In this document: piece after piece, positions 14,234 through 64,000 of the stretch
How the letters are laid out: the number at the start of each line of letters is the position of its first letter
Numbering within the stretch: the stretch's first letter is position 1
NCBI GenBank assembly: GCA_963575745.1
Contig: CAUYUJ010000059.1
Span: 310,001 to 374,000, forward strand
DNA length: 64,000 nucleotides
Direction: 5' to 3'
DNA from: Prorocentrum cordatum
Taxonomy: Eukaryota
The notes under the pieces: generated by a model
What the model was told of the DNA's origin: nothing
Database searches by the model: none
Seen by the model: only the letters and a program-made list of their open reading frames with translations
Program-made: the position numbers and the translations under genes

Positions 14234-15016
14234 TGGGAGTTCATGGACTGCACAAGGGTGAGAATGTTTTCGTTGTGTAAAGGCTCGCTCGCTCTGCACG
14301 GATGACGTTCGCATCCGAATGTCAGCGCGCTAAGACTCGAGCAGCGCTGATGCTCCCAGGATGTCAGCCGAAAAACGTTGCGCCGCCGAAATCATGGGAG
14401 TGCTTGAACAGGAACGATTTCAAGATTTAGCATGTTTGGTCTGCCGGTGCCCCCTCACCCCCGCGATATCTCTTGGTCGTCTCCAAACCAGGTGGTGAGA
14501 CACCCGGTGGTGACCCCGATTCCCCCAAAAAATAATTCTGGGTCACCACCGGGTTTGGGGACACGCGGTCGCCACGAGGTTTTGCGTTTCCTGGGCCAGC
14601 CAGCGCTCGACAACCATTACCCAAATCGCCCAAAACTCACCACCGGGTGTTCTCACCACCACGTTTGGGGACCACCAAATCTCGGGCGAACAGCTACCCG
14701 AGTTTCCGCCCCAAGGCAAACCCTTAGATGCCGCATCGCAGGCGCGTTTCAGGGATAGGATCCGTCCCGAGCATCAGTGGGCGGAGGCTCGTGCGCAGCA
14801 TCTCTCCGTAGGGCATCCTGGCTCGCCCTACCCGCATCCGCCCTTCCTTCGGACCGATTCGGAGGTCCATGGCCGCTCAAGGGTGCGAACGTTTCCTCTG
14901 TGTAGAGGCTCGTCCTTTCTGCACGGACGACGTTCGCATCTTATTGTCGGCGCGCTAAGAGTTGAGCAGTGCAGATGCTCTCATAATGTCCGCCGAGAAA
15001 CGTTACACCGTCGAAG
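14234..15016. repeat. Diverged direct repeat of about 160 bp (14234-14391 and 14859-15016)
   Basis: Shared CAAGGGTG, TCTGCACGGAYGACGTTCGCATC, GCGCGCTAAGA and GATGCTC in register. Confidence 0.8.
14473..14678. mobile_element. MITE-like palindromic element
   Basis: TIR TTGGTCGTCTCCAAACCAGGTGGTGAGACACCCGGTGGTGA versus TCACCACCGGGTGTTCTCACCACCACGTTTGGGGACCACCAA. Confidence 0.75.
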
Positions 15017-21694: not shown

Positions 21695-22101
21695 CAGGGG
21701 GCTCACGCCGGCTCCTCCGATCCGATCCGATTCGATGTCGACGGTTTCCGGTTCCGATTTGCTTCGACTCCGGACTCCGATCCAGGCTCCGGGTTCTCCA
21801 TGGAGGCCTATTGTCGGGGGTGGACAGAACCCCCAACAGTGACACGTCGATGAGTGAATTGCCCGTTTTCGGTTCTCGAGATGGCGCCGTGGCCGTCATT
21901 TTCCAGGCTTGCGCCCGCCAGGTTTGGGCCTCAGGTCGTTTTCACTAAACCACGTTTTACTAAAGGGGGGTCTGTCCATCCCCGATATTGGCCAGCCGAT
22001 GTATCCCGAGTCGACTTCTCCCGAATCGGTTGCCGATGTCCTCCGATCCGATTTATTTCGACTGCCGATCCGCCTCGTCAGCTCCATTCTGGGCTCTCCT
22101 G
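21695..22101. mobile_element. hAT-like non-autonomous element forming an intron
   Basis: 8-bp direct repeat GTCGAGGA (21687-21694, 22102-22109); termini CAGG...CCTG; the internal part is repeated at about 50635-50802. Confidence 0.7.
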
Positions 22102-31770: not shown

Positions 31771-31811
<41 letters not shown>

Positions 31812-32035: not shown

Positions 32036-32067
<32 letters not shown>

Positions 32068-32289
32068 CGTAGTAGTAGTCGTAGTAGTCGTAGTGGTAGT
32101 AGTAGTAGCAGTAGTAGTAGCAGTAGTAGTAGTAGTAGTGGTACTAGTAGTAGTAGTACTAGCAGCAGTAGTAGTAGCAATAGTAGTAGTAGTAGTAGTC
32201 GTCGTCGTCGTCGTCGTCGTCGTAGTCGTAGGCGTAAGCGTAGTCGTAGTCGTAGTAGTCGTAGTAGTCGTAGTAGTCGTAGTAGGCGT

Positions 32290-32321
<32 letters not shown>

Positions 32322-32332
32322 TAGTAGTAGTC

Positions 32333-32411
<79 letters not shown>

Positions 32412-32571
32412 TAGTAGTAGTAGTAGTAGGAGTAGGAGTAGGAGTAGTAGGAGTAGGAGTAGGAGTAGGAGTAGGAGTAGGAGTAGGAGTAGGAGTAGGA
32501 GTAGTAGCAGGGTAGCAGCAGCAGCAGCAGTAGTAGCAGTAGTCGTCGTAGTCGTAACCGTAGAAGTAGTA

Positions 32572-32610
<39 letters not shown>

Positions 32611-32645
32611 TTCGTTGTTGTTGTATGATTGTTGGTTGTTGCTGT
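31495..32645. repeat. (GTA/GTC/TTG)n microsatellite, with complementary (CAA/CAG/CTA)n at 33360-33690
   Basis: Directly visible. Confidence 0.95.
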
Positions 32646-32804
32646 CGTTCTATAGGATACTACAGGGTCGCATGGGATTCCTGGGAAAAAAGGGGGGCAG
32701 CGACTCGGATCGCGATCTGTGTCGGAAGGGGAGAGGACATGCCCCCCCCCCCCTTCCGACAAGAAACCGTGGTTCACGTGGATAGCAAAGGGCGCGCGCG
32801 CGTT

Positions 32805-33172
32805 CCGACAGGGATCGCGTTCCATTCCGGGGATCAAATACCAGGGATCAGGCACTTTTCGCCGCCCAAACATGCGATGGCTTCTACTGGAACCGCCCGT
32901 CCCGACAGGGATCGCGTTCCATTCCGGGGATCAAATACCAGGGATCAAGCTGTTCTCGCCGCCCAAACATGTGATGATTTGTATTGGAACCACCCGTTCC
33001 GACAGGGATCGCGTTCCATTCCGGGGATTAGAAACCAGGGATCAGGCTGGTCCCACCGCTCAAACATGCGATGATTTGAATTGGAACCGCCCGGTCCGAC
33101 AGGGATCGCGTTCCATTCCGGGGATCAGAAACCAGGGATCAGGCCGTTCTCGCCCTCCAAACATGCGATGAT
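32805..33172. repeat. Tandem array of four 97-bp units (last one partial)
   Basis: CCGACAGGGATCGCGTTCCATTCCGGGGAT at 32805, 32902, 32999 and 33096. Confidence 0.95.
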
Positions 33173-36045: not shown

Positions 36046-36292
36046 GCCGAAGCAGACTTACTACGCGGACAAGATGTGCGCTGGCAAGAACAAGCGCGGC
36101 AAGCCGTGCGGCTCGCGCGCGCAGCCAGGCTCCGACTTCTGCCACGCACATGCGCCGCCAGAGGCGTCTTTCTCGCAGGTGAAGGGCGAGGAGGAGGGCG
36201 CCCCGGCCGCTGGCGCGGCCACGGCCTCCGCGGACCGCCCGCCGCCGCCGTCGACGCTGCCCAGCTCGACCCCCGAGGAGAAGCCCTGCGAG
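36046..36292 (+). CDS. Probable exon of helicase gene with one further C3H unit (CAGKNKRGKPCGSRAQPGSDFCHAH)
   Basis: TTAAG|G acceptor just after the foldback element; same C-C-CxxH pattern as the end of the previous exon. Boundaries uncertain (donor could be at 36178 or 36292). Confidence 0.65.
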
Positions 36293-39132: not shown

Positions 39133-41776
39133 GGTCAGATCAGGTCAGGTCAGGCCTGTATACTCCAGATTTCGTAATAAAAGGGAGGGGGTCTGGACCC
39201 TCCAAGACAAGCCATTTCAGACCTCCCCCGTGGGAGAACCCTCCAAAACATCGCCCCCAGACCCCCCAGGCCCTCCAAGATAGCCTGGAAGAGACCCCCC
39301 CCGAAATGAGACCCCCCTCCCTTTATTACGAAATCTGGAGTACCCACAAGGGGGTGGCCACGTAGGGCACAGGCGGGGAAGACACTGCACTGCAAACAAG
39401 GGCGCGCGAGTCGGTTCACGAGGGGGGGGGGGGGCGAGGAGAAGAGTCAGGAGGGAAAGAAACACACACAGACACAATGAATCGTCGAGTCCCAGGAAAA
39501 TATAGGAAAATATGGGAATTGGGCGGGAAGACGAAAACCCAGAAAATATGGGAAAATATGGGGAATCATTTTTTTTGTGTGTATTTATGTGTGTGTCTCA
39601 GGGCCCCTTCAAAGAGGGGAGGACGACGAGAAACTAGCAAGCGCTCACGTGTCGTGGGAAGTCTTCCTCCATGCGCTCCCACGAATCTGAGTCTCCAGCT
39701 GCCACTCTGCAGTCGCCAATCTCGAACTCACGGCAAAATGATCGCACGTCGTCTTCCCAAGTTTTGCGTGGTCGTCCTCGGGGTTTGTTTCCAACGGGTG
39801 ACCATTTGAGAACACGCGACACCCACCGACCAGCAGGCAGTCTCGCAACGTAACCAGCGAATCGCCAATATATTGGCGCAAGTGAACTTCCGACCACAAC
39901 TTGAGATGGCTATCGTCCATGATTGCGTACATGCGCTCGTGCCAAGAATGTAAAATCACGTGCCAAGGACTCGACCAATCAATTCCACCCGGTGGCCCCG
40001 TTACTTGACGAAGCAGTTTCCGGCATACAGCATCAAGTCGGTACCGTTCAGTTGCATAGGCCACGCGGATTGCGGAGGCAAACAAAGCGATCGGTGTATT
40101 TTTGCATGAGAATAATTGAAACGAGCTGCTGCAGAGACGCGCATGTCCGTCAAAACCCACTTCGCGTAGAACGCCTTCGTGGCGGCTTGGAGATTGTATC
40201 CATGCTCCCTCTTGAGAACGTCCGTCGACAATACGCATCCAAGCCATGGGTGGAAACCCACAAGCTTAACCGACACGCCAGATCAAAGCATGAGCGTCTC
40301 CAGCGGCTGAGCCTCGGTCGTGAGGGCCATTGTTTTCTCTGCGTTCAAGCCCACTGAAGCAAGTTCATCAACAAGTGATGTGCGAAGGGTTGCGGCCTCG
40401 TTTTTAGATTTGGTAAAGAGCACCACGTCGTCGGCAAGACGCAAGCCCAATAAACGAAGCAATCTGTCTCCCAAGTCGAACTCTGCAGTCCAGGATTTCT
40501 GACTCCAGCGCGCCATTGCCCACTCCAGTAAACTACAGAATAATCGAGGACTGAGAACACAGCCTTGTCGAACCCCAGCTGAGATGCTGAACGGGTCGCT
40601 GCGCTCACCTTGTCCGATCTGCCCTGTCTGCTGGTCGTAAAGCACCTGCAATATCCAAATAAGGTGGTCTGAAACACCATGTTCGCGCAACGCCAACCAC
40701 AGAGCTGACCACTGCACGCGATCGAACGCCTCAGACAAATCAAGGCTCACGGCCCAAACAGGAGTGCCTACCGGTTTCGTCTTCTCCATAAACAATTTTG
40801 CGGTCAGGAGGTGTTCTTCAATGCGATAATCGGCCCGGAAGGCGTGCTGTTCCTCAGGCCGTCGCTGGTCCAATCCGTTCTCGAGGCGGCCCAGCAGCAG
40901 ATATGCAAACATCTTGTACAACATGCTCGCGCTTGCAATAGGTCTATAGTCTGTAACGGTTGCGGCCTTCGTATTCTTCGGGAGCATCTGGAATAATGTC
41001 TGCCGCCAATTCTCAGGAGGAAGTCCTTCTAGTAATACCCTGCTGTACAGTATCAACAAATGATGTCGGAATGATGCTGGCGAGTTATGGAGTAGCTCTG
41101 CGACCAAACCAATATCATCAGAAGCTCGTCTCGAGCTCAGCCTTTCTATCGCTGTGTCCAACTCCACTGCTGAAAAAAGGAGCTGCCATAAGATCTCGAG
41201 GCGTCTCTGGCGGGGGCGGCGCCCCGGCAGACCAATGACCGAGAAAGCCGGCGAATCCTCCCTCCGAGGGCGATTGGGGCAATGCTTTACCTGTGATAGT
41301 TTCTGTCAGCGCCTTGACGTCATGCCGATGTCTCGAGCTCCTCAAAATCTCATCTGGCTGGGCAGATTTCCAAATCCTTCTCTCTCGCCGCTGAAGACGT
41401 CGAATCTCAAAACTGAGCTGCTTTCGATCAGTCTGGTCGCGGGAACTCCTCCTTCGGGTCCGCAGCGTCTGAAGACAGACGCTTGGCTTGAAACGGTCTT
41501 CCTGCTTGCCGTGCGTCCGAACTTCACGGCCGCTTCCCGCAAGGCTGTTTCACCGTCCTCTGAAGACGCAGTCCCCCCATGTTGCAAAATCCACATGCTC
41601 AAGTAATCTTGGTATGCACTGCTCTCCCCATTTACATCCAGATCCGGCTTCCAAGTCTTGAATGATTTATGGTTCCCTCCTTGATTTGCAATTGCTCTGC
41701 CCGTCCCGATGGACTCTTAGGCGCCCGATGCTGTGAACACAAAGACAGCGATGAACACAACGAGGAACACAACAAC
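39133..41776 (-). mobile_element. 5'-truncated RTE-like LINE with RT domain, short-repeat tail and probable 11-bp TSD
   Basis: DYRPIAS, EQHAFR, LDLSEAFDRV, GVRQGCVLSP, LADD (40427-40438) and C-terminal WRFAGYVA...PRGRPRKTWED. (CCTGA)n tail at about 39133-39154; ATCCTCGAACA at 39122-39132 and 41777-41787. Confidence 0.88.
39163..39340. mobile_element. Tc1/mariner-type MITE with TA TSD; degenerate inverted copy at 49701-49884
   Basis: TA-CTCCAGATTTCGTAATAAA...TTTATTACGAAATCTGGAG-TA. Confidence 0.9.
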
Positions 41777-48557: not shown

Positions 48558-49948
48558 GTATCGCCGATCGGTCGGCGATGTACCGCCGATCCAGGTCGAT
48601 CTGTCCCCCATCGCTCCCCTGCATACATCGAGATCGCGATCAGAGGGAGTCGTTGAGATCTCGATGAGGGGACAGGCTGGCAGAGCTATAGGTACGTGCG
48701 GACCAATGTTGCTGTCTCGGTGTGCGTCCACTCGTGAGTTGAATCGCGCGTCCACTGCAAATCAAGCATGCTGCCACCAAATTCTTTTGTTACTCAGAAG
48801 GTGGCCTCTGTGGTAGCCACGCGCACGTCCTTTGGACTGCTCCTATCGTCGCTGTCCAGACGTGGCCACCCACATAATTTCTGACCCCCCATATACCACA
48901 GGTCCCACATGGCGCATGTCGAAACTAGCGCAGGACATGGTCCCATATTGACGGGGGGCGCAAAGAGATCCCAGGATGGACCAAGAGAAGAATCAAACGC
49001 CACTAGAAGGGCACAGTGCAAGAAGGGCAGCTTACATAAACAGGGAGCCCATGAAGGAGCACGTGCCAAGAAGCGATTTTTGGAGACGAATGTGTCGCTG
49101 GATAGTTCACAGACCAGGAAGGTAGCCGAACCTGCGAAAGGGGTCCCAGACCGCCCAGCTTTGTAGTTCCATGTTTGCCTCACCGAGGTGCATCGTCCTG
49201 AGATGTCCGCTCCCGTTTCTCCCCCCCATTGTTTTGAAGCGCCATAGCCGGCCGCCTGAAAGCCAGGCGTGACCCAAGGATTGTAGGGGCCTGAGTATCA
49301 TCCGCATCAGATCCCCACAAGCACACTCTCTACGATGGGAGAGAATTCCAAGAAGGCCTCGTGGTACCGGCACTTTCTCTCAACAGTCTCGTTCGCAGTG
49401 GGGAAGCCACGAGACGGCCTCGGCAGCGCGGCGGCCAGTTTGGAGTTGCTCGTGCGTGCGGGGGTGGCCGCGCGGAGGGCGGCTAGGCGGGCCTGCCCCC
49501 TTGTTCCCTCCTCTTCTCCCCCCCCCCACCCCCCTCCCTCGGGATGTGGCCGTACAGGGATTGCCCCTCCCGGGTCCGCGCGAGGGGCTGCCGTGTCTCG
49601 CACAGTGCCAACCGGAGCGGAGTTCGACACGGGCGAGACAGCCTCGCTGTGGTCCTTGCTTCGGCCCTTCTTTGGCCACGGACGGTCGGTCCTTTCGCTC
49701 GTTCTGGATTTCGAAATAACGGGGTGGTGGTCTGATTTTGGGAGGATCTACCTTGAATTGTCTTGGAGGGTCCCAGTTGGGTTGGGGCAACAACCCGCCT
49801 TTTCATGACTGGTCTTGGGGGGGTCTAAAACTGCTCGTCTGGGAGGGTTGTGATCCCCTCACTTCTATTACGAAATTTGGAGTACCCCCTGTGCTTGGTC
49901 TGCCCGGAAAATGTCGATCAGAGCTTCACGCATACCTCGATGATTCAG

Positions 49949-50042
49949 GACGACGCGCTTGTCTGCCGGCCACCGCCGGGCCTGATCGATGCCGCCGACC
50001 TTCCCGGGTACGACAACCCTGACGAGGTCGAAGAGGCTGAAG
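49949..50042 (+). CDS. Probable exon of helicase gene (DDALVCRPPPGLIDAADLPGYDNPDEVEEAE)
   Basis: TTCAG|G acceptor, GAAG|GT donor, phase-1 join to 50492 giving DEVEEAEGAQHLREVL. Confidence 0.6.
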
Positions 50043-50491
50043 GTTCCATGTCTGTCGAGGTTGACGAGGTCGAAGAGGCTTAAGGTTTTGCAGTATTTTC
50101 GTCGGTTCTCGGCGGCTTTCCAGCCTCGGGGTGCGTTCAAGCAGCTGCGCCTGTCCAGGAGCGTTCCAGGGGTTCCCCGATCGTCCCGAACGGCCGCCGG
50201 AGAGTCGATTTGTGACCCGGAGGCCAGGAGGTTCGAGGTCTGTTCATGGGAGCACTGGCCGGCGACATTGAGTTCAATTGTCCTGCATTTGGGCTGCATT
50301 TGGCCCTTCCTCCTGCTCCTCCTCGCCCCTCCTGTCCCTCCTCCCCCTCCCCGTTCTTCTCGTCTCTCCTGAAGGTGTGAATCTGGTCCAGATCTGGTCC
50401 CAGATGTGTTCCAAATCTGGTCCAAATCAGAACCCAAACCGGACAGCGCCAGGGGCCACGCAGGCTCCCATGGAACGGGCACCAAATCGAG

Positions 50492-50575
50492 GTGCGCAGC
50501 ACTTGCGCGAGGTCTTGGGGGAGGTCGACGAGGGCGAGGATGATTTTGCGAATTTTGACGTGGGCGACGGCGCCG
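50492..50575 (+). CDS. Probable exon of helicase gene (GAQHLREVLGEVDEGEDDFANFDVGDGA)
   Basis: CGAG|GT acceptor; acidic linker; putative CG|GT donor is phase-compatible with 51147. End uncertain. Confidence 0.5.
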
Positions 50576-51146
50576 GTCTGCCAGAAGCGCCTCCGGAGAC
50601 AGACCAGGGGCTTGGCGATTGGGCGTCGCGCAAGGGGGGGTCGGAGGTGGATAGACCTCCCACCCTGACACGTCGATTGAGGAAGTGGCCGTCTTCGGTT
50701 CGCGAGAGGGCGTCGCGGCCGTCATTTTGCGGGTCCAGGTCCGTCGGTTTCGGCCCCAGGCCGTTGTCACTAAGGGGAGGTTTCCTAAAAGGAGGTTTGT
50801 CCACCGCCGAGGGGGGGCGACAAATGGGGGGTGGTAGCGAAGGCTGCAGAAAGGGGGTCCTTCAGGGCCCCTACAGGAGCCCTTTGGGACCCAAAAGGGA
50901 GCCTCCAGGGCCCGAAAAGGGCACCTTGTCTTGCCCTCCCCCCCGTCTGTCGCCCCCATGAGGCTTAGGTTGGTCATGTCCCTCTACAGGAGGAAAATTC
51001 TAAAGTTGTGAAATCATAGTCTGGGGACGATTTTACTATATTTGTTTTCCTATTATTGAACATGCTTGACTACGTTTAATGTTGCCTCGAATATCCGCCT
51101 GTAGGAGGACATGCCCGCGCCGACCTAACATTAAGCGACGCCCAAG

Positions 51147-51265
51147 GCGAGACTTTGGAGTGGGAGTGGCAGCCTCTGAGCACAGCTGCGAGCCCCGACC
51201 CGAAGGCCTGGACGTGGGACATGACATTGCAGCAGCGTTGGGAGGCGTGTGAGCATTTCATGCAG
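51147..51265 (+). CDS. Exon of helicase gene (GETLEWEWQPLSTAASPDPKAWTWDMTLQQRWEACEHFMQ)
   Basis: WDMTLQQRW matches the WxLxxxxRW motif that precedes Walker B in ZNFX1-like helicases; CAAG|G acceptor, CAG|GA donor. Confidence 0.8.
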
Positions 51266-51268
51266 GAA

Positions 51269-51469
51269 CTTGGCGGCGAGCAAGGGGGGGAAATGAGAAG
51301 GGGACGGCCTTCTCAGAAGGCGGCGGGGCTTCTCTGAAGGCCAGCGGCCTTCTGAGACGTTTTCTGCGTCTTCGGGGAAGGCTTAGCACATGTCTCAGAA
51401 GGCCGGGGAACTTCCAAGCCTTCTGGGAAAGCCCGCCCTTTGTCATTTCCCCCCGGGCTCGCCGCCGAG
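51269..51469. mobile_element. TIR element forming an intron (Introner-type) with 3-bp GAA TSD
   Basis: About 50-nt imperfect TIR CTTGGCGGCGAGC...GGGGGGAAATGA / TCATTTCCCCCC...GCTCGCCGCCGAG; GAA at 51266-51268 and 51470-51472. Confidence 0.85.
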
Positions 51470-51911
51470 GAACACAAGAAAAAATTGGAAGCGGTTCGAG
51501 AGCAGATAAAGAAGCATTTCCCCATTGAGCGCAAGAAGCAATGGTGCGGGCCAATGCCCGCGCGTACGAGAACAAGTCTGTAATCTTCGGGACGATCGTG
51601 GGCTGCATTGGGCGCCTGGAAGCGATACGGGCGACAAATCCGTTCGCGATATTGGTGGAAGAAGCCAGCGAAGTGCTGGAGCCGTTGCTGTACGCCTGCA
51701 TCGGATCATCAACTGCGAAGTTCGAGATGATAGGCGACCATCTCCAGCTGTCGCCAAGCATCATGCAGAAATTTGATTTCGAGCGGACGAACAAGATCAA
51801 CGTGTCCATGTTCGAGCGACTTATTCGTGCACCACAGGAACATGCGGTGCCGAACGGGGTGTTGTGTGTGCAGCGGCGCATGCGCCGTGACGTGTGCGAT
51901 CTGACACGCGA
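51470..51911 (+). CDS. Exon of helicase gene with Walker B and motif III; contains an apparent 1-nt frameshift near 51538
   Basis: VIFGTIVG, ILVEEASEV, MIGDHLQLSP, SMFERL and LCVQRRM are UPF1/ZNFX1-family motifs. The upstream part (EHKKKLEAVREQIKKHFPIERKK) is in a different frame from MVRANARAYENK. Confidence 0.9.
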
Positions 51912-52879
51912 TTATCGAAGACGCCTACGGCGCAGCACCGCCGCCCCGCGCCTTGGAAGTATTCATACGGCCAGGCGATGGGCCAGAGTCTGGCCAAGCT
52001 AGTGGGCCATGTATTCCCCCAGCCGTTGTGGAACCCCTTTGGGGAACGCCTGAGAGAGCAAGAGGAAGGGAAAGGAGGATAAGAGGGAAGATGCTGGCGG
52101 AACACACAGCCTCAAGGGCGGCCGGTCCCTGCCTGTGATTCCTTTTCGCGTCGACGAGGGTTCTCGAACAGACGATGCGCAAGCATAAGTTGCCGATCTT
52201 ATCGGCTACGCGGCCAGGACAGAAGGAAATGGGGTTAAGAAGATGTCCCCCCACCGGAGGGGGGCAGCGTTGAAGAAGCCCAAGACGAGCAAGTGCAGGT
52301 AGCAGAAAGATGGGGCAATCTGCAGGGTGTGGCGGGATGCAGGGCAGCAAGAGAGAGGGACGGGGGCAGTTGGGATGGGAAAAGTGGACCGCAAGCGCAG
52401 GAGGAGGGCGCGCTGCTGCGAGACGGGGGGAGGGCCGAGCAGGAGAGAGAGCCCAGCGGCAAGACAGTGCGGCAACCAGAGGACAGAGAGGACGGAGCAG
52501 CGGTGAAGGAGCGCGACGCGAGAGGGAGGAAAGAGCGACGAGGCAGGAAAGACCGACGGCCCACGGAGAGGCGAGTGCTCTGGGTCCAAAGCTGCGGGGG
52601 ATGGGGATCGAAGGGTCCAGTGTTGCGCCTCAGTAGAAGGGGAGGGAGCGGTCGGTGCCGCCGGATATGGGCAGGGGGGTCGCGCGAGGCCTGGCCTGCC
52701 CCGCCAGCGGCGGGGGTAGCCGGGTGATCTTGAAGAGAGCCAGAACACCGTGGTAATAAGCAAGGCACAGCATGAAGGGTCAAATGATTGGGTAGGGGGG
52801 CATAATGGCACCTCGCCTTTTTGAGTTATTCATGTTCTTCTCTCTCTCTCTCTCCCCTCTCTCTCTCTTTCCTTTTTTT

Positions 52880-52913
<34 letters not shown>

Positions 52914-52939
52914 TCTCTCTCCCCCTCTGTCGAGGACGC

Positions 52940-54375
52940 TCAGATTGATTCTCTTTTGTGCGAGCGGGTACAAGTTGATTTCCTTGATGGGGATTACACA
53001 TTGATTTCCTTTGTGGGGGGCTACACATTGATTCCCTTCGTGGCGGGATTACACGTGTTCCATGTGTGTGGTTACATATCGATTCCTTGTGCATGGGGGG
53101 TCAAATAGGTTCTCTTTGTGTGTGTGGGACGGGAGGGTCTGGCCGCCCTGGGGGAGACTCCAGGAAGAAAGAGAATAACAAATAAAAAAAAATGGAAAAA
53201 AAAATGAGGATAACAAAAAAAAAAAAAATGAATTCACTGGCCCGTTTTTTTTTTTTCTGGGCCCGAACCAAAAAAAAACAAAAGAAAGAAACAACTGGGC
53301 CAGTATATCCAGAGGGCCGTTTTTTTGCTGGGATCTTCCCCCCAGGGCCAGACCCTCCCCTCCTCCGCCACAAAAGGAATCAATGTGTACCTCCTCGCAC
53401 AAAGGGAATCGACGTGTAACCCCCCGCGAAGGGAATATATGTGTAATCCCGCCACCAGGGAAATCAATGTGTACCCCCCCACAAAGGAAATCATTTGTAA
53501 TCCGCACAAAAAGAATCAATGTGTACCCCTTCACACAAAGGGAATATAATCCTTTGTGGGGGGGCTACACATTGATGTCCTGCGTGGTGGAATTGCACAT
53601 CGATTCCCTTTGTGGGGGGTACACATAGATTCCCTTTTTGTGAGCGCGATGTTGTTTTCTTCCTGGGACCTTTCCCCCAGGCTGCGCCCCCTCAGGCAGC
53701 GGGCAGCGCCAGGGACAGTCGGCGCCAAAGTCCGTCGGCAGCACCTCCTCCTCCTGCTCTTCCGCGTCCTCCTCATCCTCCTTTTTTCCGCGTCCTCCTA
53801 GGGCGATTTACAAATATATTCCCTTTGTGTGAGAGGGTACATGTTGATTCCTTTTGCGGCGGAGGCAGGGAGGGTCTGGCCCTGGGGGGAAAAGCCTCAG
53901 CAAAAACATGCTTTTCCTTTTGTCCCAAAGAAAACAAACAATACACGTGCAACCCCAATAAAGGGGAAACACTTTGGACCAGTGCATTCAGGGGGGCCGT
54001 CTTGTTTTTTTTGCTGGAGCCCTTCCCCTCGGGCCAGACCCTCCACTCCTCCGCCACAGGAGGAGTCAATTGGTTTACACAACAAAAGGGAATCGATGTG
54101 CAATTCCGCCAGAAATGGAGTCATAGTTTCGCCCCCCACACAGGAAGTCCATTTGCAATCCCTACAGGGAATCTGTTGTACCCCCTCAAACAACAGGGAA
54201 TGGATTCGTACCCCCTCCCCCCCACACCCCGCACAAAGGGAATAATTGATGTGCAACTCCGCAACAAAAAAGAATCGGTTCGCAGGCCCCACAAAGGGAA
54301 TCACTGTGTACCCCCGCAACGGAAGCCAATTCGCATTCCCTCGCACAAGGAGAATCGATGTGTGATCCACACACA
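52940..54375. repeat. Two adjacent foldback structures built from about 30-bp TACACATTGATTCCC units
   Basis: Unit orientation flips across GGGAGGGTCTGGCC...GGCCAGACCCTCC cores at 53131-53359 and 53868-54044. Confidence 0.7.
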
Positions 54376-54399
54376 CAAAAGGACCCCAGAGAGGGAGGC

Positions 54400-55740
54400 T
54401 TTCAATCATCTCAAGATCCTTCCCTTTCCCTCAGGAAGGAGGATAAGGAGGAGGAGGCGGAGGTGGAGGAGGAGGAGTTTCCCTTCCCATCCCCCCATGA
54501 AGGAGGACGCGGAGGAGGAGGTTCATTCCTTTCCCTGTCCTTCAGGACGGAGAAGGAGGTCCCCTTCCCTGCGCTCTCCCTTAGGAAAAAAAAAGAGTGG
54601 GATGTTCCTTCACTCCCCTTTCCTTCAGGGCAGAGGAGGAGGAGGTTTCTCTCTTTCCCTTTCCATGAGAAGGAAGAGGAAGAAGAGGTGGAGATTGGAA
54701 AGGAGATTCCTACCCTTCCCTTTGCCTCAGGGAAGAAAAAGAGGAGGTTCCCTTCGTGCCCCTTTTCCATCAGAAAGGGGGAGGGAGAGGAGGAGGAGCA
54801 GGGCAATTCCCCGCCTTCCCCTCAGGAAGGAGGATGATGATTAGGCCTTTCCCTCCCGTTTCCCTCAGGAGGAGGGCGGGGAGAAGAAGGCGGACAATCC
54901 TCCCCTTCCTTTATCCCTCAGTAAGATAGGAGGAGGTACCCTCCCCTTCCCTGTCCCCCAGGAAGGAGGGGGGTGAGGGGGCTCATTCGCTTTCCTTTTC
55001 TTCAGAGGGAGGAGGAGAAGGAGGAGGCGCATTCCTTCGATTTTCCCTCCAGAAGGAGGAGGGGACAATTCCTCGCCTTCCCTTTCTTCGGGAAGGAGAA
55101 GGAAGAGGAGGACGCCCCCTCCCTTCCCTTACCTTCAGGACGGAGAAGGAGGAGGCCCCCTCCTTCTTGCCTTTTCACCCATGAAGGGAAATGAGGAGGA
55201 GGTGAATTCCTTGCCCCCTTCCTTCAAAATTCAGGAAGATGATGAGGTACCTTCCCTTCCCTTTCCCCCTTAGGAAGGGGCGGAGGAGGTTCCTTCCCAC
55301 CCTACCCATCAGGACAGCGGAGGAGGGGGAGGAGGAGGAGGTCCCGTCCCTTCCTTTCCCTCCCCCCAGGAAAAGGATGAGAGGGAGTAAGTTATTTTTC
55401 TTCGCTCTCCCTCAGGGAAGACGAGGAGGAGGTTCCATTCCTGCCCATGTGCATCAGATGCAGGGGGAAGAGGAGGAGGAGCAGGGTCATTCCTTTCCTT
55501 TTCCCTCAGGAAGGAGGCCGAGGACGCCCCCTTCCCTTCCCTGTCCCCCAGGAAGGAGGAGGAGGAGGACGACGACGAGGAAGCTCCTCCTTCTCCGTCC
55601 TGAAGGTAATTAAGGGAAGAGAGGGAACCTCCTCCTCCTCCTGCCTGAGGGAAAGTGAAAGGAATGAGCCCCATCCTTCTCCTTCTCCCTCTGGAGGAAA
55701 GGGAAGCGAATGAGCCTCCTCATCCTCTTCTTTCCTGGGA
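54400..55740. repeat. Degenerate minisatellite of alternating purine (GGAGGA) and pyrimidine (TTCCCTT) blocks
   Basis: Recurrent CCCTTCCCTT...CAGGAAGGAGGAGG units of roughly 35-40 bp. Confidence 0.8.
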
Positions 55741-58700
55741 GACTGGGAAGGGGGGGCGGGCGAGGTGCCGCCGACGCCCGCGAGCCCGCCTGCTCGCCCA
55801 GGCGCCGGGCCCTCGGCTTCGGGAAGAAGGTCCCAGCAAAAAAACCGGGACCGCCCGAGAAAAAAAGAACGGGCCAGCGGATTCGGGGGGCCGTTTTTTT
55901 TTGCCGGGACCTTTCCTCCAGGGCCAAAACCCCCTTTTCTTCCCAAACAACAAAGAATCAATATGAGCGCCCTCCACAGAGGGGAAGAGATAGAGAGAAG
56001 GAGAAAAAGAGAGAGCGAGAGAGAGAGAGAGCGAGATAGAGAGGGCGAGGGAGAGAGAGTGAGAGAGGGGGGGGGGAAAGACAGAGAGAGAGAGAGAGAG
56101 AAAAAAAAAAAGAGAGAGAGAGAGAGAATACAGAACAACAAAAAAACTTGAAAACTTCAAAAACGCAAGGTGCCGCCACGCCCCCCAGGGGCGAAAGCCC
56201 AGCACGAGGGGCCAACACATGCGGAGCCAAAGCCCCATCGAACCATAGGACATGTAGAATGGGTATCATTGGGAGCGCAACGGTCTGGACGTCGGAATTG
56301 TAGATTGACACGGGTGGCAGGGGTGGCACGATTTATCCCGCGCATCGCGCTAAGAAGTGAGCAAAGCAGGGCCGAAATTGAGCGCAACAAAGCGTGGTTC
56401 AGTTGGTTTGTTCGGTTTCAGCTATAACACCGATATGGAGACGAAGCGCGAGGCGAGCGACGGAACAAAATTTAGGATTACGGTTGCGGCCGAAAGAGAT
56501 GAAACCACGGCCAGATAGCGAACGCACGCGAGGCAGGTCGAGCATGGGGGCACCAGGCAGTCGAGAAGAATTAAATCATGTTGAGGGGAGCAATGCGGGG
56601 GACTGGCCCACCGTTGCAGGGGGCAAGAGACTGGGGGGGCAGAGAGAGTGAGAAAGATAGACAGCGAGAGAGAGAGAGAGAGAGAAAGGGAAGAGAAGCC
56701 TGTCGAGCGCAAGGCAGGACCGAACAGGATGGGAGCACGGATGGGATAAGTGCGGGATAGGCAAACCGAAAAAAGAGGCGATGATGTGAGCGCAGCGCCA
56801 CGCCAGAATCGATTTTACTGAGAGCGCAACGGCGTGGACGCCGGCAATGCAGGGAATGAGATGGACAACGGATGCCATCGCGCGGAAGGCAGACGCCGAG
56901 AGGGATGAGGGATCGGGCGGTAAGCCAGAGAGGAGGAGACGGAAAAAAACAGCGGGACTCAGGCTGGCAGAATTGGCGACGAGGCACGAACAGAGCAGGC
57001 GGGCACGAGATAGGCGAAGAGACTGATTTCGCGCGCAAAGGAAATGCCGAGAAGGATGAGAGACCGGGCGGGTAGCCAGAAAGGATAAGGATTGGATAAA
57101 CGCGGAAAGCAGGCAAGCAGAACGGGGGGGGGGATGTGAACGCCGCGCCACTGGACGCGTAGAGCCGATATTATTGCGAGTGTCGCGGTCTGGACGTCGG
57201 CACTGCATATAGAGCGACAGCGGCGGCGCACTTGCCCGCTCCATCGTGCCCCCAAAGGTACAGAACAAAGTAGGGCCAACATTGGCCACGACAAGGTGCG
57301 CTTTCGCCACGTTTGCTTGGTTGTTGCTTGCACAGCCGATAAGGAGGTGATGGGCGCGGCGAGCCGTTGTGGAGCCCGCGCCACAACCGATTTGATAGGT
57401 GGCAGGTTGGACCAGCCAGTCATCGAATCAACAGGTGGCACGTCCGTTTTTAGGCGCGAAGACAAGGGCTGCCCCCGCTCACAAAGGAAAATGCTGAAAC
57501 GCCTTGGAGAGCAGGATAGAAGAGGATTACATCCACCTTCGGCAGGGATCTGTAGCAATGCGCAGGGCGGGGCGGGATACAGGGCAGCAAGATACAGGGG
57601 CAAGAGCGGGCAGCAAGCGCAGGATGAGGGCGCGCCGCAGTGAAACGGGGGGGGCCGAGCAGGGGAGAGAGCCCGGCGATGTTCAACGAGGCGACAAGAC
57701 AGCCCGGAAGCCAAAGGACAAAGTGGACGGGGTAGATGGCCCAAGGCTTTCTGGCCCAGGGCAATCTTTCGAAAAGCTCCGACCAGGAGCCCTGCCAAGG
57801 GCGGGGTGCGGTCCTTGCATATCCCTTACACTGCACTTCCCTTTTCGGCCATCCCCAGTTGCCCTCGCAACCTTCCCCCTGCCGCGCCGCCACGCCGGGT
57901 GCGCGCCAGGTTTGAGCCCCCAGGCGAGGCGCCCCCAGGCGTGGACACCTGCGCCGCGCATGGTGGCGCCTCCGGAGTTCAAGGTCTCATCGTCGCCAAT
58001 CGCGCGAACGGGGCGGCCGCGGGCGGCGGGGACATCGACGGCTTCGACTCCGTGGACGCGGAACTCGATAAGTCCAGCGCCACGCATGGCATGGCAGCCT
58101 TGCAGATGAACGCTGACTCCAGCGCTCAGGCTGCCACCATGGCACTTCCTATATTGGACGAGTGGCTACAGGATCGAGCGCGCGATGAGGTGCTCCGAAA
58201 TGACTTTCTGACACAGGCCAGCGCCATGACGCGGCCGCTAAATGTCAAGGGCCTCTCAATCTTAATCCCAGAATTTTGGGGCGTTTTCGAAAATGTGATC
58301 ACCAAGCTCGCTCTCAACACCTCCGCATCAAACCCATGGAGTACATTTGGATTTGGCCCCTCGGCGTTCCAGAGCCAGCGGAGCAGCGCATCGTCACCCG
58401 CACGCGTACCGCGATTATTATATGTTCATTCGCTTCTGAGTTTACTCGGCCGCAGGTGGGCATATATAGAACGGCGGCGGCAGCCCGCCACCTTCCCCGA
58501 GGCCGGCCTCCAGTTCGAGGAGCAGGTTTCTGGAGTGCCCCGCAAACGCCGCCGGCTTCGTCTTAAGCTCCCACGGTGGAAGGAGTTTGGGGACCCGTCC
58601 TGCTGCCCATGCTATGGCAGCTACCCGGCGGCCCCAGATCCTGAACGCTTCCTCCCAGGTTCATTCGGCGACGGTCGATCAGCATCGGCGGCCTGCGGGC

Positions 58701-59199
58701 GCGCCGTGGGGGATGGGGGGCCAGCGGGCGCTAGCTTGGGCGCCTTACGATTCGAGTGCGTTCCACTGCGCCCTATTGCGACAGCCGGATCCGCAGTTTC
58801 GCCCACTGAGATTCGCGCTTTTTGCGCCCATTGCCCACCTTCTTGGCGTTAGTTCTCCCAGCGAGTTATTTGACCTCCGAGGCCAGAACGCGCCGCTCTC
58901 CTTCGCAATGTGGACCTAAACTTGCAGCCGGTGGAGCATATCCTCCCGGGCCGCTCCGCTCCCCGACGCGTTCGTCAAGGTCTGGCGTGTTTTACGATCT
59001 CGACGGAGGGCCCCCGCGCGACCCCCACGACCCGCCACCGCGGTTCGCGCCCCCCGCGGGTCGACCTCCCCGCCGAGCTTTCGCCCGCCCTCGCGCGCAA
59101 GATGGATGGCCCCGAAGTTCGCTCCAATCCGGCACCGTTGCTCTGCCTGCCACCCCAGAGAGTTTGAAAAGCACGCCGGAGGTGGGTCGCTTGCCCGCG

Positions 59200-62100
59200 G
59201 AAGTTCTTCTACCCAGCTAATTTCCGAGGTTTCCACGGAGGTGGACATTCGTTCTCTGCGGCGCCAGGCCCTGACCTCGCTGATGCACGCGGGCCACGAG
59301 AACCTCTGCGTGTCCCTGGGCGCCAAAATGGGGCGCCGCAGTCCGCTCGCCTTGCGACGCACTTGGCCCTTGCGCTCCCAAGCACTGCACTTCTCATCGG
59401 ACATGGCGCTCCTCTACACTTCTGCTTCAAAGGAAACGCGGGTCGAGATGTTCGACCAGGCGCTCCAGGGGGATCCGGGCCACGCGATCACGACGCTCAA
59501 GCACAAGGCCAGCCGCCTCGGCGGCCGCCCGCGGGCGCCCCCACGACAACCTCAGCGGCACTCGGCGCCCCCCGCCGGCAGCGGGGCCGACTCCAGACAG
59601 AGACAGCGCCGATGAACTACGTCGCGGAGGTCCGGGGTCCGGGGACACCGACGGGAGCGCGCCCAAGCAGGTGATCACCCGCGCGTGCTCTGCGTCAGGT
59701 CTGGACCTTCAGCCCGCGGATTCCAAGCAGGCCCCGCGACCCAGAGAATGGGTGCACCTCGCTTGTCGGGATGCTGCTGCGCTCCCTGGCCGCGCTCGCC
59801 CATTGCTTCGTTCCACTGACGAGGTTTGGAAATTGTTCAACGCGCTGAATGGCCAGGCCCTTCAAGTCGGCGTCGACTATCTGCATAACGAATGACGCCA
59901 CGAATGCTTGGGAATTCAAATACGTATTTGCATGGGCCCCGCCTTCTGGCCCGCGGACGTCGCTGCCGAGCTCCGCCAGCGCCCCCCAGGACCGTGCTCT
60001 CCGTGCCGCGGCCAGCCCAGCAATGTGGAGTCTACCACGTCTTTTCGTTTGTCTTCGTCAATTCCCGGAACTTCGCCCTGCCAGCTCTTGCCTCGCCCAC
60101 TTGCTTTTCCATTCGACCGGCTGCGCGCATTGGACCAGCGATTGTTGGTTCACACGCCAGGCGACTCGCAGGCAGATGTCCCATACCAGATCCAGCTGCA
60201 GAACAAGATTCGGCATGCTTTCGGATATGGTGCACATCCAGTGCCTTCGGCGTTTTCTGCGCCCCCTTGCCCGCGCCCCCCCGGGAGCCCCCGGCCTCGG
60301 CCCCCTCTTGAGGACGGCCCGTACTTTGTTAAGCTTCCGGCCGCCACGTGGAACTGTCAAGCTTCATTTGCTACGGATCCCAGTCTTCATCGAACGAAGT
60401 CTCATTGTTCTCGCAAGCTCATGGCCGCCCACGACACCGGTTTCTGGACAGAGACGCACGGCGCCGTTGGGGGGATCGCAGTTTGGCGCAATCCCGCGGA
60501 TTGCACTTCCCGGTGGGCCCCCTGCCCTACCCCTGGCAGTGCTGGAGCGGGAATGATTCTTAAGAACAGCATCCCAGCGAAGTTCACCAGACGCTCGTGA
60601 GAGCAGATCTTTGCGCCTGGCCGCGCTGCTGCCTCCGCCTGCGAGGTCCGGGGGGCGATCTTGATATCAGGGTTGCATATACACTGGAGGGGCGCCCTCC
60701 TAAGTGAACATCGACGCGGCAGGCCCACCCCACCCTGGCCGAGCCCCACCTCCGTGGAGCCCCGCGAGGCCTTGCGCTAGCGCATCGCTCAGCGCCAGCG
60801 CATCGCTCAGCACATCTTGCCCAAAGACCGGGTGCTGACCTTCCTCGGGTGACTTGATTTACGTCACGGTGCCTGAGGACCGTCGGCGCGCCAGCTCCAG
60901 GGCTGCGACGGGCGCGCGGGGCCTCGAGGAAGAGGCTAGTTGGCGTCGCGCTGCGGAGCTACCACGCGGCCCCCAATGACTCACGGCCCCCCCGCTTCCC
61001 GATCCCGCCTCGACAGGTTCCATTGCACTCAGAGCGTCGCGGAGGGCTTTGACCGGAAGCTGACGCGCGCGGCGCCGGCATGGACGCTCGGGTTTTCTAG
61101 GAACCAGGCTTTATGTTCTCGCCAAGCTCTGCCCTGGCACTTCTCGGTCGACTGCGCTGCTGCCTGGCGACGCGACGGGGGCCCCTGAGTGGCCTCATCG
61201 AGTCGCACATGCATGGTAAGCTTCTTCTCGAAGAGGAGAGCGCCCCATTTGAGTTGCGCAAGCTGGCACGCCCGATGAAAGCGACGCGGACCGTTGCCCG
61301 CAACGCGTTTTGCCCGGCATCTCTCGCCGAGGATGCCACTTCATTGGGGGTCGCGTCGGCATCGCTATGAAGTCTCTTCGTTCCTCGGAGGCAGGCTCGG
61401 CGACCGGCGCGAGTCAACGCATTCGCGGGCGCCCGCCCCTCGCAAACTTCGTGGACAGCCCTGACACCATAGACGCGCCCGTCGGCCGACGTCTTCGTCT
61501 CCGGATGCACATTGCGGAGTTTGCCCGCAACCGCTCCGTTTCCGCATTACGGCAGCTTCACGACGACATCGCAGGCCAGTCGGAAGAGCGGGCAATTCGT
61601 CGCAGGCAGCGGAACCACTGGCTTGTTACACGTCGCGCTCCTGGTCGGGGGTGCTCCAGTTTGGCGCTCGGAGAACTCCGGGCGCGCGTGCACCTCCCCC
61701 GAACATCAAGCACGAGTCTTGCGAGAACACCAGTCTCCAGTTTTCCGTCTTCGTCGCGCCGGTGAACAGATTCGCCGGGCATGGATTGCGGAGCCACGCC
61801 CCAGGCAACATTGCCTTGTTCGAGACGCTCGAGAAGGCCATTCGCAGCACGAACAACAGTTCGCTGGGGCCGGGCGGGACCCCTTTGCAAGCGCGGCGGA
61901 AGCACGGCCGGTTTGCCGCGGAGGCCCTCTACGACGCGTTCCGCGCCATTGCTTGCCCCGCCGGGATCACTTCGCTGGAGGCGGACTTGGACACGTATAA
62001 CGAGAGCCCGATGGCGCTCCCCCCCCAAGAAGCCGCGCACCTCCACCCCGGACGGTTTGGACGCCTTTCACCGCGAACAGCACGCGGCCTTTGAGCATCG

Positions 62101-63950
62101 CCAGCGCCGACAACAGGATCAGACGCAGCGCGGTCCGCATGCACATCGAGCTGGACGCGGCCCCCCGGGGCCCCCAAGTCGCAACAGGGGTCTCTCCACG
62201 GCCGGTCGACGCCGGTGAACTTGATGGACGTCGAGGAAGCAATGCTCCACCATTCTTTCGTCTGCGAGGACTCGGCGGCGGCGCCCTTCGACTGCGAAAC
62301 CGCATTTCCGAGCGTCAGCCAGGAGTTCTTGATGGATGTGGCCCGCGCGCGCGGCTGGCCTGCGTGGCGCGCGCGCGTTTTGCCTGGGCACATCATTGGA
62401 ACAACTATTGCAATATGGTCATATCCGAGGCGAAGTTCAGCGGCTTCCTTTTGACGGCAAGGGCGCGTCAAGGCTGCCCATTGCCACCACTTCTCGGCGA
62501 CCATGAACTGCATCAGCGCGTCGACGTCGGGCTCGCGGAAGGTGACGTCGATCTGGTGGGCGGGGCTGTTTGCGGTGGTATACGGCGTCCTCCTGCGGCG
62601 CCTCGCCCATCGCCATCCTGATGCTACTGCTCGCGCCTACGCCGACGACCTCGCGGTTGCGCCAGTGCACGGGGCAACCGACCCCCCCGTCTTGGAGCGC
62701 ACGTTCGAGCCGCGCGCGCGGTTCTCTGAGCTCCAGCTTCGCCATGGCAAGTCAGCGCGGGCACCGTTGTCATCGGTCATTGCAGACGAGGTGACGACCC
62801 AGGTCCAAGCTGCCGCCCCCACCCGGAGCGACTTTACGATCCGCCGCCACGCCAATTACCTTGGACTCGCAGTGGGCCCGGAACGCGCCGAGCACGCATG
62901 GACACAGCCATTGGAGAAGTTTCTGGCTCTAGCCCGGACCTGGAGATGCATCGGGCATGGCTTGCTGCTGACGCTCTAGCCTTACCGCGCTTACATATTC
63001 CCGACCCTCGCCTTCGCGTCGTGCTCCAGCTGGACCGCCCCCCTTCTGGCTGGGCAGTCCACGAGCAGAAAGCGCGCACGATCCTCTTTCCAGGTCCGCG
63101 GGGCTGGGGCCCTCCCGCAGCCCTCCGGCGCTTGCGCGCCCTCGATTTCCAGAGCACGCTCATCGATGCCCACGCGACGGCTGCGGCGGCGAAGTGCCAA
63201 ATTTACCAATGGGAGAACGTTGCGCACGGCGGCCTTGAGGTTCGGCGCCGCGCCTGGGCCTTGCAGGATGTTTGGGCGAGTTCTGATCGCGCGACGCGGC
63301 AGGCAGTCTGGGGCGACTGGCACGACAACAGCTTGTTCGCCAACCTCGACCGGGCCCACGGGCAGCTCCAGCAGAAAGCGACGGGAGCGAGGATGTCGAT
63401 CGCAGAGCTGATGCAGAGGGCCACCTCTGAGCCCACCTTGCGGGCGCACGGGCAGATGCGCTCCCGCGCTCGCTTGCAGGAGCCGTTCCCGACGGGCTCG
63501 GCGAGTCACCTGAGTCGTTACCTCGCCCGCCTGTCTTCCCCAGTGCCTCCAAGTCGCCGCCTGGAGCGGGCCGCCTGCGCCCTCCGCGGGCTGGCGCGTT
63601 TGGTGCCTCCCCGCGTTTTGCTGCAATGGCTGGAACACCAGCCACCCCATGCAGCGACGCATGGAGTGCGTTTTCGGATGTCGAGCTGCCGAAGACAGCC
63701 TTCGATATGATGCTCCAGTTGCGGATTGTAGCCAGAGGCGGCTGGGCCCCCTCCCCGCCCTTCCTCTGGAGCGGTTGTCTTCTGTCTCCTCTTAACCCCG
63801 CAGTTCCGCGAAGACACGGGCAATGAACTCGTTCGACGCGCTTTTACTACTTATGCGGCGTACGTTGCCGGAACCGCCGCGCGCCACGGGCAGACTGTCA
63901 ACGCGCATGAGGCCCTGGGCGCATGAGGCCCTGGCGCAGTACGCGCGCGA
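59200..63950 (+). mobile_element. Decayed L1/Tx1-like LINE (ORF1-like remnant, AP endonuclease, RT, C-terminal region)
   Basis: ATWNCQ (about 60345), THG..SRSRLDRFH (about 61000), FDCETAFPSVSQEFL, ARQGCPL (about 62470), YADD (62638-62649) and YLGLAVGP. Many frameshifts; 5' boundary uncertain, possibly as far as 57.9 kb. Confidence 0.8.
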
Positions 63951-64000
63951 GGCGTGTGCGGCACACGCTGGTCTGGCTAATATTGTAGCTGCTGTGTGGA

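What the first reader, a model, noticed from the sequence alone, without database searches (positions are those of the whole stretch)
51266..51472. Intron that is exactly a TIR element: the TSD supplies a GA donor and the element terminus supplies the AG acceptor
Seen: exon ...ATG CAG | GAA [CTTGGCGGCGAGC ... GCTCGCCGCCGAG] GAA CAC. The 201-bp bracket has about 50-nt imperfect inverted termini and is flanked by GAA on both sides. Splicing 51266-51469 (GA...AG) removes the element plus one GAA and restores the pre-insertion coding sequence exactly. Known: Introner elements and GA donors are described in dinoflagellates. Inference: this is a self-erasing, intron-generating transposon family that depends on the non-canonical GA donor; this particular family may be undescribed.
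Basis: partly seen in the sequence, partly recalled or inferred. Interest (0 to 1): 0.75.

Follow-up and report, generated by a model that had tools for sequence, protein, structure and literature searches.

The report
Transposon-made intron in a dinoflagellate gene
A 199-base hairpin-shaped mobile element sits inside the coding sequence of a dinoflagellate helicase gene, and transcripts lack exactly the element plus one copy of its duplicated target, which is a well-supported example of a way of making introns already described in these algae.

Summary
A MITE-like element with inverted ends lies in a coding exon of a ZNFX1/NFX1-type helicase gene. Contigs from 3 of the 4 public runs laid (three studies) join 51263 to 51468, so they lack exactly 204 nt. 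Seven cut registers give that same product, and only 51266-51469 (GA..AG) ends in AG.

The anatomy needs correcting. The next intron upstream (50615-51146, GC..AG) is built the same way from a related element. Three other small elements in the window also have T-Y-G-G ends and exact 5-bp target duplications (5 found; mean 0.06 in shuffles). The element is therefore best read as 51270-51468 with a 5-bp duplication GGAAC, not 3 bp. The donor is bases 2-3 of the duplication. The acceptor is the element's last A plus the duplication's first G. The mechanism does not depend on GA, because the neighbouring intron uses GC.

This kind of intron is in print for Symbiodinium, Polarella and Prorocentrum cordatum, and this scan noted one before on another piece of the same genome.

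Caveats: no whole genome was available, so E1's family size was not measured. The transcripts also carry 10 nt at 51534 that the window lacks, so an insertion-free allele or paralogue as their source is not excluded.

The parts
51265..51269 (+). Upstream copy of the 5-bp target-site duplication GGAAC. The exon ends with its first G (51265), and the intron starts with its bases 2-3 (GA, 51266-51267).
51270..51468 (+). Element E1: 199 bp, MITE-like, no coding capacity, 63% G+C. Its ends are TTGGCGGCGAGC and GCTCGCCGCCGA (11 of 12 complementary). Its interior is built from short palindromic units (5 copies of a 13-nt unit).
51469..51473 (+). Downstream copy of the duplication GGAAC. Its first G completes the AG acceptor, together with the element's last A (51468).
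51266..51469 (+). Intron C: 204 nt, GA..AG, phase 0. Contigs of runs X1, X2 and X4 skip it (joint 51263->51468, with 6 letters that fit on either side).
51147..51265 (+). Coding exon upstream of E1 (...WTWDMTLQQRWEACEHFMQ), collinear with homologues.
51470..51915 (+). Coding exon downstream of E1 (EHKKKLEAV..., helicase AAA_11 part). Transcript contigs match the window up to 51915.
50615..51146 (+). Intron B: 532 nt, GC..AG, built the same way as intron C (duplication bases 2-5, then element E2, then the first G of the second duplication copy). Contigs of X1, X2 and X4 skip it.
50619..51145 (+). Element E2: 527 bp. Its ends are TTGGGCGTCGC and GCGACGCCCAA, with the 5-bp duplication GGCGA at 50614-50618 and 51146-51150. 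Its first ~22 nt are homologous to the left end of E1. It is a composite of several hairpin modules.
50641..50810 (+). Element E3: a 170-bp MITE nested in the G-run of E2, with ends TCGGAGGTGGA and TCCACCGCCGA. Many transcript contigs match it at 90-95%.
21814..21985 (+). A second copy of the E3 family: 172 bp, 76% identical to E3, with an unambiguous 5-bp duplication TATTG.
14473..14678 (+). Another small element with TTGG...CCAA ends: 206 bp, arms of about 40 nt, 5-bp duplication ATCTC.
51534..51535 (+). Place where transcript contigs of X1, X2 and X4 carry 10 more letters than the window. Without them the window's reading frame shifts here.

Best explanation
E1 is a non-autonomous cut-and-paste DNA transposon (a MITE). 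It inserted into a coding exon of a dinoflagellate ZNFX1/NFX1-type helicase gene and duplicated 5 bp of the target (GGAAC).

The element ends in A and the duplicated target begins with GG plus a non-G base. The pre-mRNA therefore offers a donor (G|GA, inside the upstream duplication copy) and an acceptor (A from the element plus G from the downstream copy). The spliceosome removes duplication bases 2-5, the element, and the first G of the second copy. That is exactly 204 nt, and it restores the pre-insertion coding sequence.

The long hairpin formed by the inverted arms brings the two splice sites together. Because both ends of the element are T-Y-G-G, either orientation would work.

What is shown: the TIR and duplication anatomy; transcripts lacking exactly 204 nt; a single register with an AG acceptor; and a sister intron built the same way with a GC donor.

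What is inferred: that the spliceosome does the cutting at GA..AG; that the hairpin helps; that one transposase family mobilises all five elements; and that exonic insertions survive only in GGHNN targets.
For: TIR and hairpin:
- The TIRs, the longer inverted arms and the hairpin (z = -10.2) are shown.

Transcripts:
- Contigs of X1, X2 and X4 come from three studies and match the exons with 0-1 other letters.
- They join 49960-50040 | 50490-50613 | 51146-51263 | 51468-..., so they skip three stretches, including exactly 204 nt at E1.
- For each of the three stretches, exactly one register is G[T/C/A]..AG: GT..AG, GC..AG and GA..AG.

Homology:
- The spliced reading is collinear with homologues with no gap at the junction. 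In P0050, residues 786-812 and 815-836 flank two residues, exactly as in the window.

The 5-bp duplication:
- Intron B has the same construction with duplication GGCGA, and its terminus is homologous to E1's.
- The window holds 5 elements with T-Y-G-G ends, TIRs matching at 10 or more of 12 positions, and exact 5-bp duplications. The mean in 100 Markov-1 shuffles was 0.06 (maximum 2).
- The same scan with 3-, 4- or 6-bp duplications finds none of the four outside the G-run.

Other copies:
- Part of E1 (51272-51334) matches other contigs at 90-95%.
- One contig's loose end runs into the same right terminus...GCTCGCCGCCGAG.

Literature:
- The preprint describes TIR elements whose duplication gives the donor, with GA commoner among newly gained introns.
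- Symbiodinium introners with 4-bp duplications co-opt their donor from the duplication.
- The P. cordatum genome paper finds introner patterns in 2.4% of its introns.
Against: - The transcripts differ from the window by 10 letters at 51534. They may come from another allele or paralogue, and whether that copy carries E1 is unknown.
- No contig was shown to bridge an exon-E1 boundary, so an unspliced precursor was not seen.
- The run types are '?' or 'RNA? (a guess)'.
- The fourth run laid (X5) shows no contig across this joint.
- No second full-length copy of E1 lies in the 64-kb window, and no genome was available. E1's own family size and the duplications of its other copies are therefore untested.
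- The register GA..AG is chosen by rule (it has an AG acceptor), not observed directly.
- E1 and E2 resemble each other only over the first ~22-35 nt.
Confidence: 0.8

Rival explanations
1. Empty-site reading. The transcripts come from an intact allele or recent paralogue that never received E1. The window's copy is a frameshifted pseudogene into which a MITE happened to insert. The 204-nt 'skip' would then be a DNA difference, not splicing.
For: All three runs that cover the place carry 10 letters at 51534 that the window lacks, and the window's frame breaks there. An uninserted site looks exactly like a precise splice. No unspliced contig was shown across the exon-E1 boundary.
Against: The exons match the window with 0-1 other letters over 527-813-nt contigs, so the source is this locus or a very young copy of it. 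The same contigs skip two more stretches, and in each of the three exactly one register is G[T/C/A]..AG. By my estimate the chance of that is about 0.07-0.08 per element. Three independent insertions into the exons of one young copy is not a parsimonious account.
Confidence: 0.08
2. The element is 51269-51469 (CT...AG), it carries the whole AG acceptor, and it makes a 3-bp duplication GAA, like the CT...AG introners of Symbiodinium but with a shorter duplication.
For: With C and G included, the TIR is 13 nt with one mismatch, and GAA flanks both sides. Symbiodinium introners are described as carrying their 3' splice site.
Against: The sister element E2 has no C...G pair outside TTGG...CCAA, yet it has an exact 5-bp flanking repeat. 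The two non-intronic elements have 5-bp duplications (TATTG, ATCTC) that a 3- or 4-bp model leaves to coincidence.
Confidence: 0.12
3. Hairpin-guided removal that is not ordinary spliceosomal splicing, as was discussed for the non-canonical introners of Amoebophrya, with the cut at any of the seven registers.
For: The hairpin is very stable and pairs the two intron ends. The junction cannot be placed within 6 nt from contigs alone. Farhat et al. raise such a mechanism for Amoebophrya (passages).
Against: A legitimate dinoflagellate register (GA..AG followed by G) exists here, and GC..AG and GT..AG registers exist in the two neighbouring introns. Nothing requires a new mechanism.
Confidence: 0.03

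Closest known systems
Introner-like elements of Symbiodinium and Polarella glacialis classes 4/5 (Roy et al., bioRxiv 10.1101/2020.10.14.339549, parts 1-2 of 4 read; Gozashti et al. 2022, PMC9860276, passages read)
   Same: A TIR DNA element sits in a coding exon. The first bases of the target duplication (G plus A, C or T) serve as the donor. The 3' end of the element lies at the acceptor. Splicing removes the element plus one duplication copy. GA donors are typical of young introns.
   Different: Those classes have 4-nt duplications (GHNN), CT at intron positions +5/+6, and the whole AG inside the element. Here the best reading is a 5-nt duplication (GGHNN), TT at +5/+6, and an acceptor split between the element (A) and the target (G). 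The preprint does describe splice sites that straddle the element-duplication boundary, for its classes 9, 12, 13 and 1, but with other duplications.
Introner elements counted in the Prorocentrum cordatum genome (Dougan et al., bioRxiv 10.1101/2022.07.25.501386 and PMC10666404; passages and supplement 1 passages read)
   Same: Their definition is met: an inverted repeat of 8-20 nt and a direct repeat of 3-5 nt within 30 bases of the intron ends. The window's G+C (mostly 55-65%) fits that genome's 59.7%.
   Different: In the passages I read, that work counts a pattern (2.4% of introns) and does not describe families, termini, duplication length or splice-site origin. Its supplementary tables 1-2 were not seen.
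Non-canonical introner elements of Amoebophrya (Farhat et al. 2021, PMC7789003, passages read)
   Same: Hairpin-forming introns with inverted repeats at their ends and 3-5-nt direct repeats that overlap the exon-intron boundaries.
   Different: Many Amoebophrya introns have no recognisable splice dinucleotides. Here a GA..AG register exists.
MITEs (miniature inverted-repeat transposable elements)
   Same: About 200 bp, no ORF, TIRs, a target-site duplication, and related copies elsewhere.
   Different: An ordinary MITE in an exon disrupts the gene. This one is removed from the message.

Membership tests
Introner / introner-like element (DNA-transposon type) | Intron boundaries coincide with a transposon plus one copy of its target-site duplication | tested here: met
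   The joint 51263->51468 skips 204 nt, which equals the 199-bp element plus 5 bp.
Introner / introner-like element (DNA-transposon type) | Terminal inverted repeats and a flanking direct repeat | tested here: met
   The TIRs match at 11 of 12 positions, and the arms extend inward as 24-nt and 37-nt blocks. The flanking repeat is GGAAC.
Introner / introner-like element (DNA-transposon type) | Removed from transcripts as an intron | tested here: met
   Contigs from 3 of the 4 runs laid, from three studies, lack it. Caveats: these are contigs rather than reads, the run type is uncertain, and there is a 10-nt difference at 51534.
Introner / introner-like element (DNA-transposon type) | Many similar copies that form introns in unrelated genes | tested here: inconclusive
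   There is no second full-length E1 copy in the window. Other contigs match 51272-51334 at 90-95%, and one loose end shows the same terminus. Sister intron B has a homologous terminus. No genome was available.
Introner / introner-like element (DNA-transposon type) | Intron absent at the same position in orthologues (recent gain) | not testable with these tools
   Only protein collinearity was seen. Genomic loci of relatives could not be fetched.
Symbiodinium-type ILE (4-nt GHNN duplication, element carries the AG) | 4-nt duplication | tested here: not met
   The five elements with T-Y-G-G ends have exact 5-bp duplications. The 4-bp scan finds only the copy in the G-run.
Symbiodinium-type ILE (4-nt GHNN duplication, element carries the AG) | Donor recruited from the duplication as G plus A, C or T | tested here: met
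   GA in E1 and GC in E2, at duplication bases 2-3.
MITE | Short, non-coding, with TIRs, a duplication and multiple copies | tested here: met
   E1 is 199 bp, and reading it through in frame meets stop codons. TIRs and duplication are shown. For the related family, E3 and the copy at 21814-21985 are 76% identical.

The most novel reading that the evidence does not exclude
The five elements define a group of MITEs with T-Y-G-G...C-C-R-A ends and a 5-bp duplication. Its way of making introns is not among the classes in the parts of the Roy et al. preprint that I read. The element carries only the A of the acceptor. Both the G of the acceptor and the whole donor come from a GGHNN target. Any insertion into such a target, in either orientation, would then be erased exactly from the message. 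Two neighbouring introns of one gene, one with a GA donor and one with a GC donor, arose this way, and one of them has since grown by a nested insertion. If the group is abundant, it could be a main source of new introns in this high-G+C dinoflagellate.
Probability: 0.3. Interest if true: 0.45.

Novelty: new member of a known kind. Interest (0 to 1): 0.3.

Why it matters
This is a concrete, transcript-backed example of intron birth by transposon insertion in a dinoflagellate. Two adjacent introns of one gene show the same construction, and a nested MITE shows how such introns can grow. It helps gene annotation, because GA and GC donors and precise element-plus-duplication introns must be allowed. 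It also gives a testable rule for which insertions can survive in exons: GGHNN targets for elements that end in A. It does not change the picture already published for dinoflagellates.

Tried and rejected
- Whole-genome search for copies: no genome is held for this window.
- BLASTN of 51201-51540 against the window: only the self hit and the self-inverted hit, with no other hit below E = 0.2.
In BLAST of E1 and E2 against them, every match was 19-27 nt, no longer than the seed region, so these are chance hits in G+C-rich DNA.
- The same scan of viral contigs: 10 loci, all seed-only matches.
- Search of this scan's notes by E1's sequence: no look-alike stretches. One word search also returned nothing.
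- Run X5 showed no contig across the E1 joint, and intronic parts without cover are not used as evidence.
- Search for downstream exons of the helicase in 51900-64000 by relaxed tblastn: all 25 rows printed had E of 0.078 or more and were not collinear, so the next exon is not in the window.
- The 3-bp and 4-bp duplication models were considered and set aside.
- DNA-level excision of the element was considered and rejected. This rests on general knowledge, not a call: cut-and-paste excision normally leaves both duplication copies or a footprint, whereas the transcripts hold a single copy.

Full report
**1. The observation**

ATGCAG GAA is followed by CTTGGCGGCGAGC. About 200 nt later comes GCTCGCCGCCGAG, then GAA CAC.

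- The exact 10-mer GGCGGCGAGC occurs in the 64-kb window only at these two ends. The other 16 of the 18 matches allowing one mismatch are at chance level (shuffle mean 13.68).
- The inverted arms continue inward as a 24-nt block at 83% and a 37-nt block at 84%.
- The 204-nt stretch folds as one long hairpin: -138.6 kcal/mol against -87.0 +/- 5.1 for 200 shuffles, z = -10.2, with no shuffle as stable.
- The single TIR mismatch is a G-U pair in RNA.
- The flanking direct repeat is longer than GAA. AGGAAC stands at both 51264-51269 and 51468-51473.

**2. The gene**

The element lies in a gene on the + strand.

- The ORF at 51529-52002 matches Pfam AAA_11 (E = 4.8e-07). The ORF at 26582-29002 also matches AAA_11 (6.8e-11).
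- Of 82 homologues found, the best named ones come from the dinoflagellates Effrenium voratum (77% identity) and Durusdinium trenchii (72%, named NFX1-type zinc finger-containing protein 1). An unnamed protein, P0050, is 94% identical over 59% of the query.
- tblastn places exons at 27287-28876, 36041-36184, 49931-50050, 51182-51262 and 51473-51906.
- Across the element, P0050 residues 786-812 and 815-836 leave two residues between them. That is exactly what the window gives once 204 nt are removed (Q and E). The homologues therefore have no insertion here.
- Read through in frame, the 204 nt contain two stop codons.

**3. Transcripts**

No genome is held for this window, so I looked for public runs. 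Twenty rows hold part of 50950-52000, and none holds half of its words or more. I laid the contigs of four runs from four studies on 49800-52400.

- In X1, X2 and X4, contigs match the exons with 0-1 other letters and skip three stretches: 50040->50490, 50613->51146 and 51263->51468.
- The last skip is exactly 204 nt, with 6 letters that fit on either side.
- X5 has no contig across this joint.
- The run types are not on record as RNA ('?' or 'RNA? (a guess)'). Contigs that skip three stretches are nevertheless spliced messages, or copies of such messages.
- I enumerated the registers. For each of the three stretches, exactly one register is G[T/C/A]..AG:
  - intron A, 50043-50491, GT..AG;
  - intron B, 50615-51146, GC..AG;
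  - intron C, 51266-51469, GA..AG.

**4. Corrected anatomy**

Intron B begins GCGA TTGGGCGTCGCGCAAGGGGGGG and ends GCGACGCCCAAG.

- Its element (E2, 50619-51145) has perfect 11-nt ends and an exact 5-bp flanking repeat, GGCGA.
- Its first ~22 nt are homologous to E1's left end. Beyond about 35 nt the two elements are not alike (51% in a global alignment).
- E2 carries a nested 170-bp MITE (E3, 50641-50810) in its G-run, and further hairpin modules.
- A 76%-identical copy of E3 lies at 21814-21985, with the unambiguous 5-bp duplication TATTG.
- Another element with TTGG...CCAA ends lies at 14473-14678, with the duplication ATCTC.
- A scan for T-Y-G-G...C-C-R-A elements with TIRs matching at 10 or more of 12 positions and an exact 5-bp duplication finds these five. 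The mean in 100 Markov-1 shuffles was 0.06 (maximum 2).
- With 3-, 4- or 6-bp duplications, the same scan recovers none of the four that lie outside the G-run.

E1 is therefore best read as 51270-51468 (199 bp) with the duplication GGAAC. Introns B and C have the same construction. The exon ends with the first G of the duplication. The intron starts at duplication bases 2-3 (GC or GA). It ends with the element's last A plus the first G of the second duplication copy.

**5. Mechanism**

- Shown: a MITE-like insertion in an exon, and a message that lacks the element plus one duplication copy.
- Inferred: spliceosomal removal at GA..AG, and help from the hairpin in bringing the two sites together.
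- Inferred: a rule that elements of this group ending in A can survive in exons only in GGHNN targets, in either orientation because both ends are alike.

GA is not required, because the sister intron uses GC. The two E2 duplication copies are still identical, so that GC is original and not a later conversion from GA.

**6. Caveats**

- All three runs that cover the place carry 10 extra letters after 51534. With them the frame reads on as in the homologues. Without them the window's frame shifts. The window is thus an assembly error, an allele or a young paralogue at that point.
- If the transcripts come from another copy, an uninserted site would look the same as a splice.
- Against that reading: the exons are near-identical, the same contigs skip three stretches, and each stretch has a proper splice register. 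I put the empty-site reading at about 8%.
- No second full-length E1 copy lies in the window. Other contigs match 51272-51334 at 90-95%, and one loose end runs into the same right terminus. That shows relatives exist, but not what their duplications are.

**7. What is known**

- Roy et al. [quoted passage not shown] They report GHNN duplications, GA donors enriched among new introns, and classes in which splice sites straddle the boundary between element and duplication.
- Gozashti et al. 2022 (passages) show Symbiodinium introners with 4-bp duplications and TIRs that carry the 3' site and co-opt the 5' site.
- The P. cordatum genome paper (passages and supplement passages) counts introner patterns in 2.4% of introns and in 10-11% of genes. 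Its gene finders were modified to accept GC and GA donors.
- Farhat et al. (passages) describe hairpin introners in Amoebophrya.
- Gozashti et al. 2025 (passages) has no occurrence of 'Prorocentrum' in its main text.
- A library search for 'Prorocentrum' plus 'introner' gave 7 papers, of which 6 were listed. I read only the genome paper among them, and in the passages I read it does not describe families. Whether any of the others does was not checked.
- This scan already noted a 214-nt TIR introner on another piece of the same genome. I did not check that, beyond noting that the window's G+C fits the published 59.7%.

**8. Verdict**

The feature is real and transcript-backed, and it is a new instance of a known kind. 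That needs a genome-wide census.

Noticed in passing
window 51534/51535: Transcript contigs of X1, X2 and X4 carry 10 letters that the window lacks, between two GAAG repeats. Without them the helicase frame shifts. The cause could be an assembly error, an allele or a young pseudogene copy.
   Followed up: partly
window 50020-50087: The last 26 nt of the exon, together with the donor of intron A, are repeated 42 nt downstream inside the intron (96% identical). In the second copy GAAGGTT has become TAAGGTT. This is a duplicated 5' splice-site region.
   Followed up: no
window 50813-50957 and 50972-51116: Two more hairpin modules lie inside element E2 (19-nt arms at 89%, 23-nt arms at 83%). The A+T-richer part at 50931-51191 matches many transcript contigs, so it is probably another nested repeat.
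   Followed up: partly
window 51910-51916: Transcript contigs stop matching the window at 51915 (GATTAT|CG), with no G[T/C/A] directly after. A GA donor at 51910 would fit if the next exon begins GATTAT. The next exon is not in the window.
   Followed up: partly
window 40283-41305 (-): A reverse-transcriptase ORF (RVT_1, E = 8.4e-26) lies on the opposite strand, inside the 13.7-kb intron of the helicase gene.
   Followed up: no
window 31389-33801: A 2.4-kb stretch is bounded by a perfect 12-nt inverted repeat (TTGGGGTTTCTT / AAGAAACCCCAA) with CTG on both sides. It encloses a long TAG/TAC microsatellite at about 31588-32428.
   Followed up: no
window 52800-56200: Long low-complexity, purine/pyrimidine-skewed repeats give open frames on both strands. 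No family was assigned.
   Followed up: no
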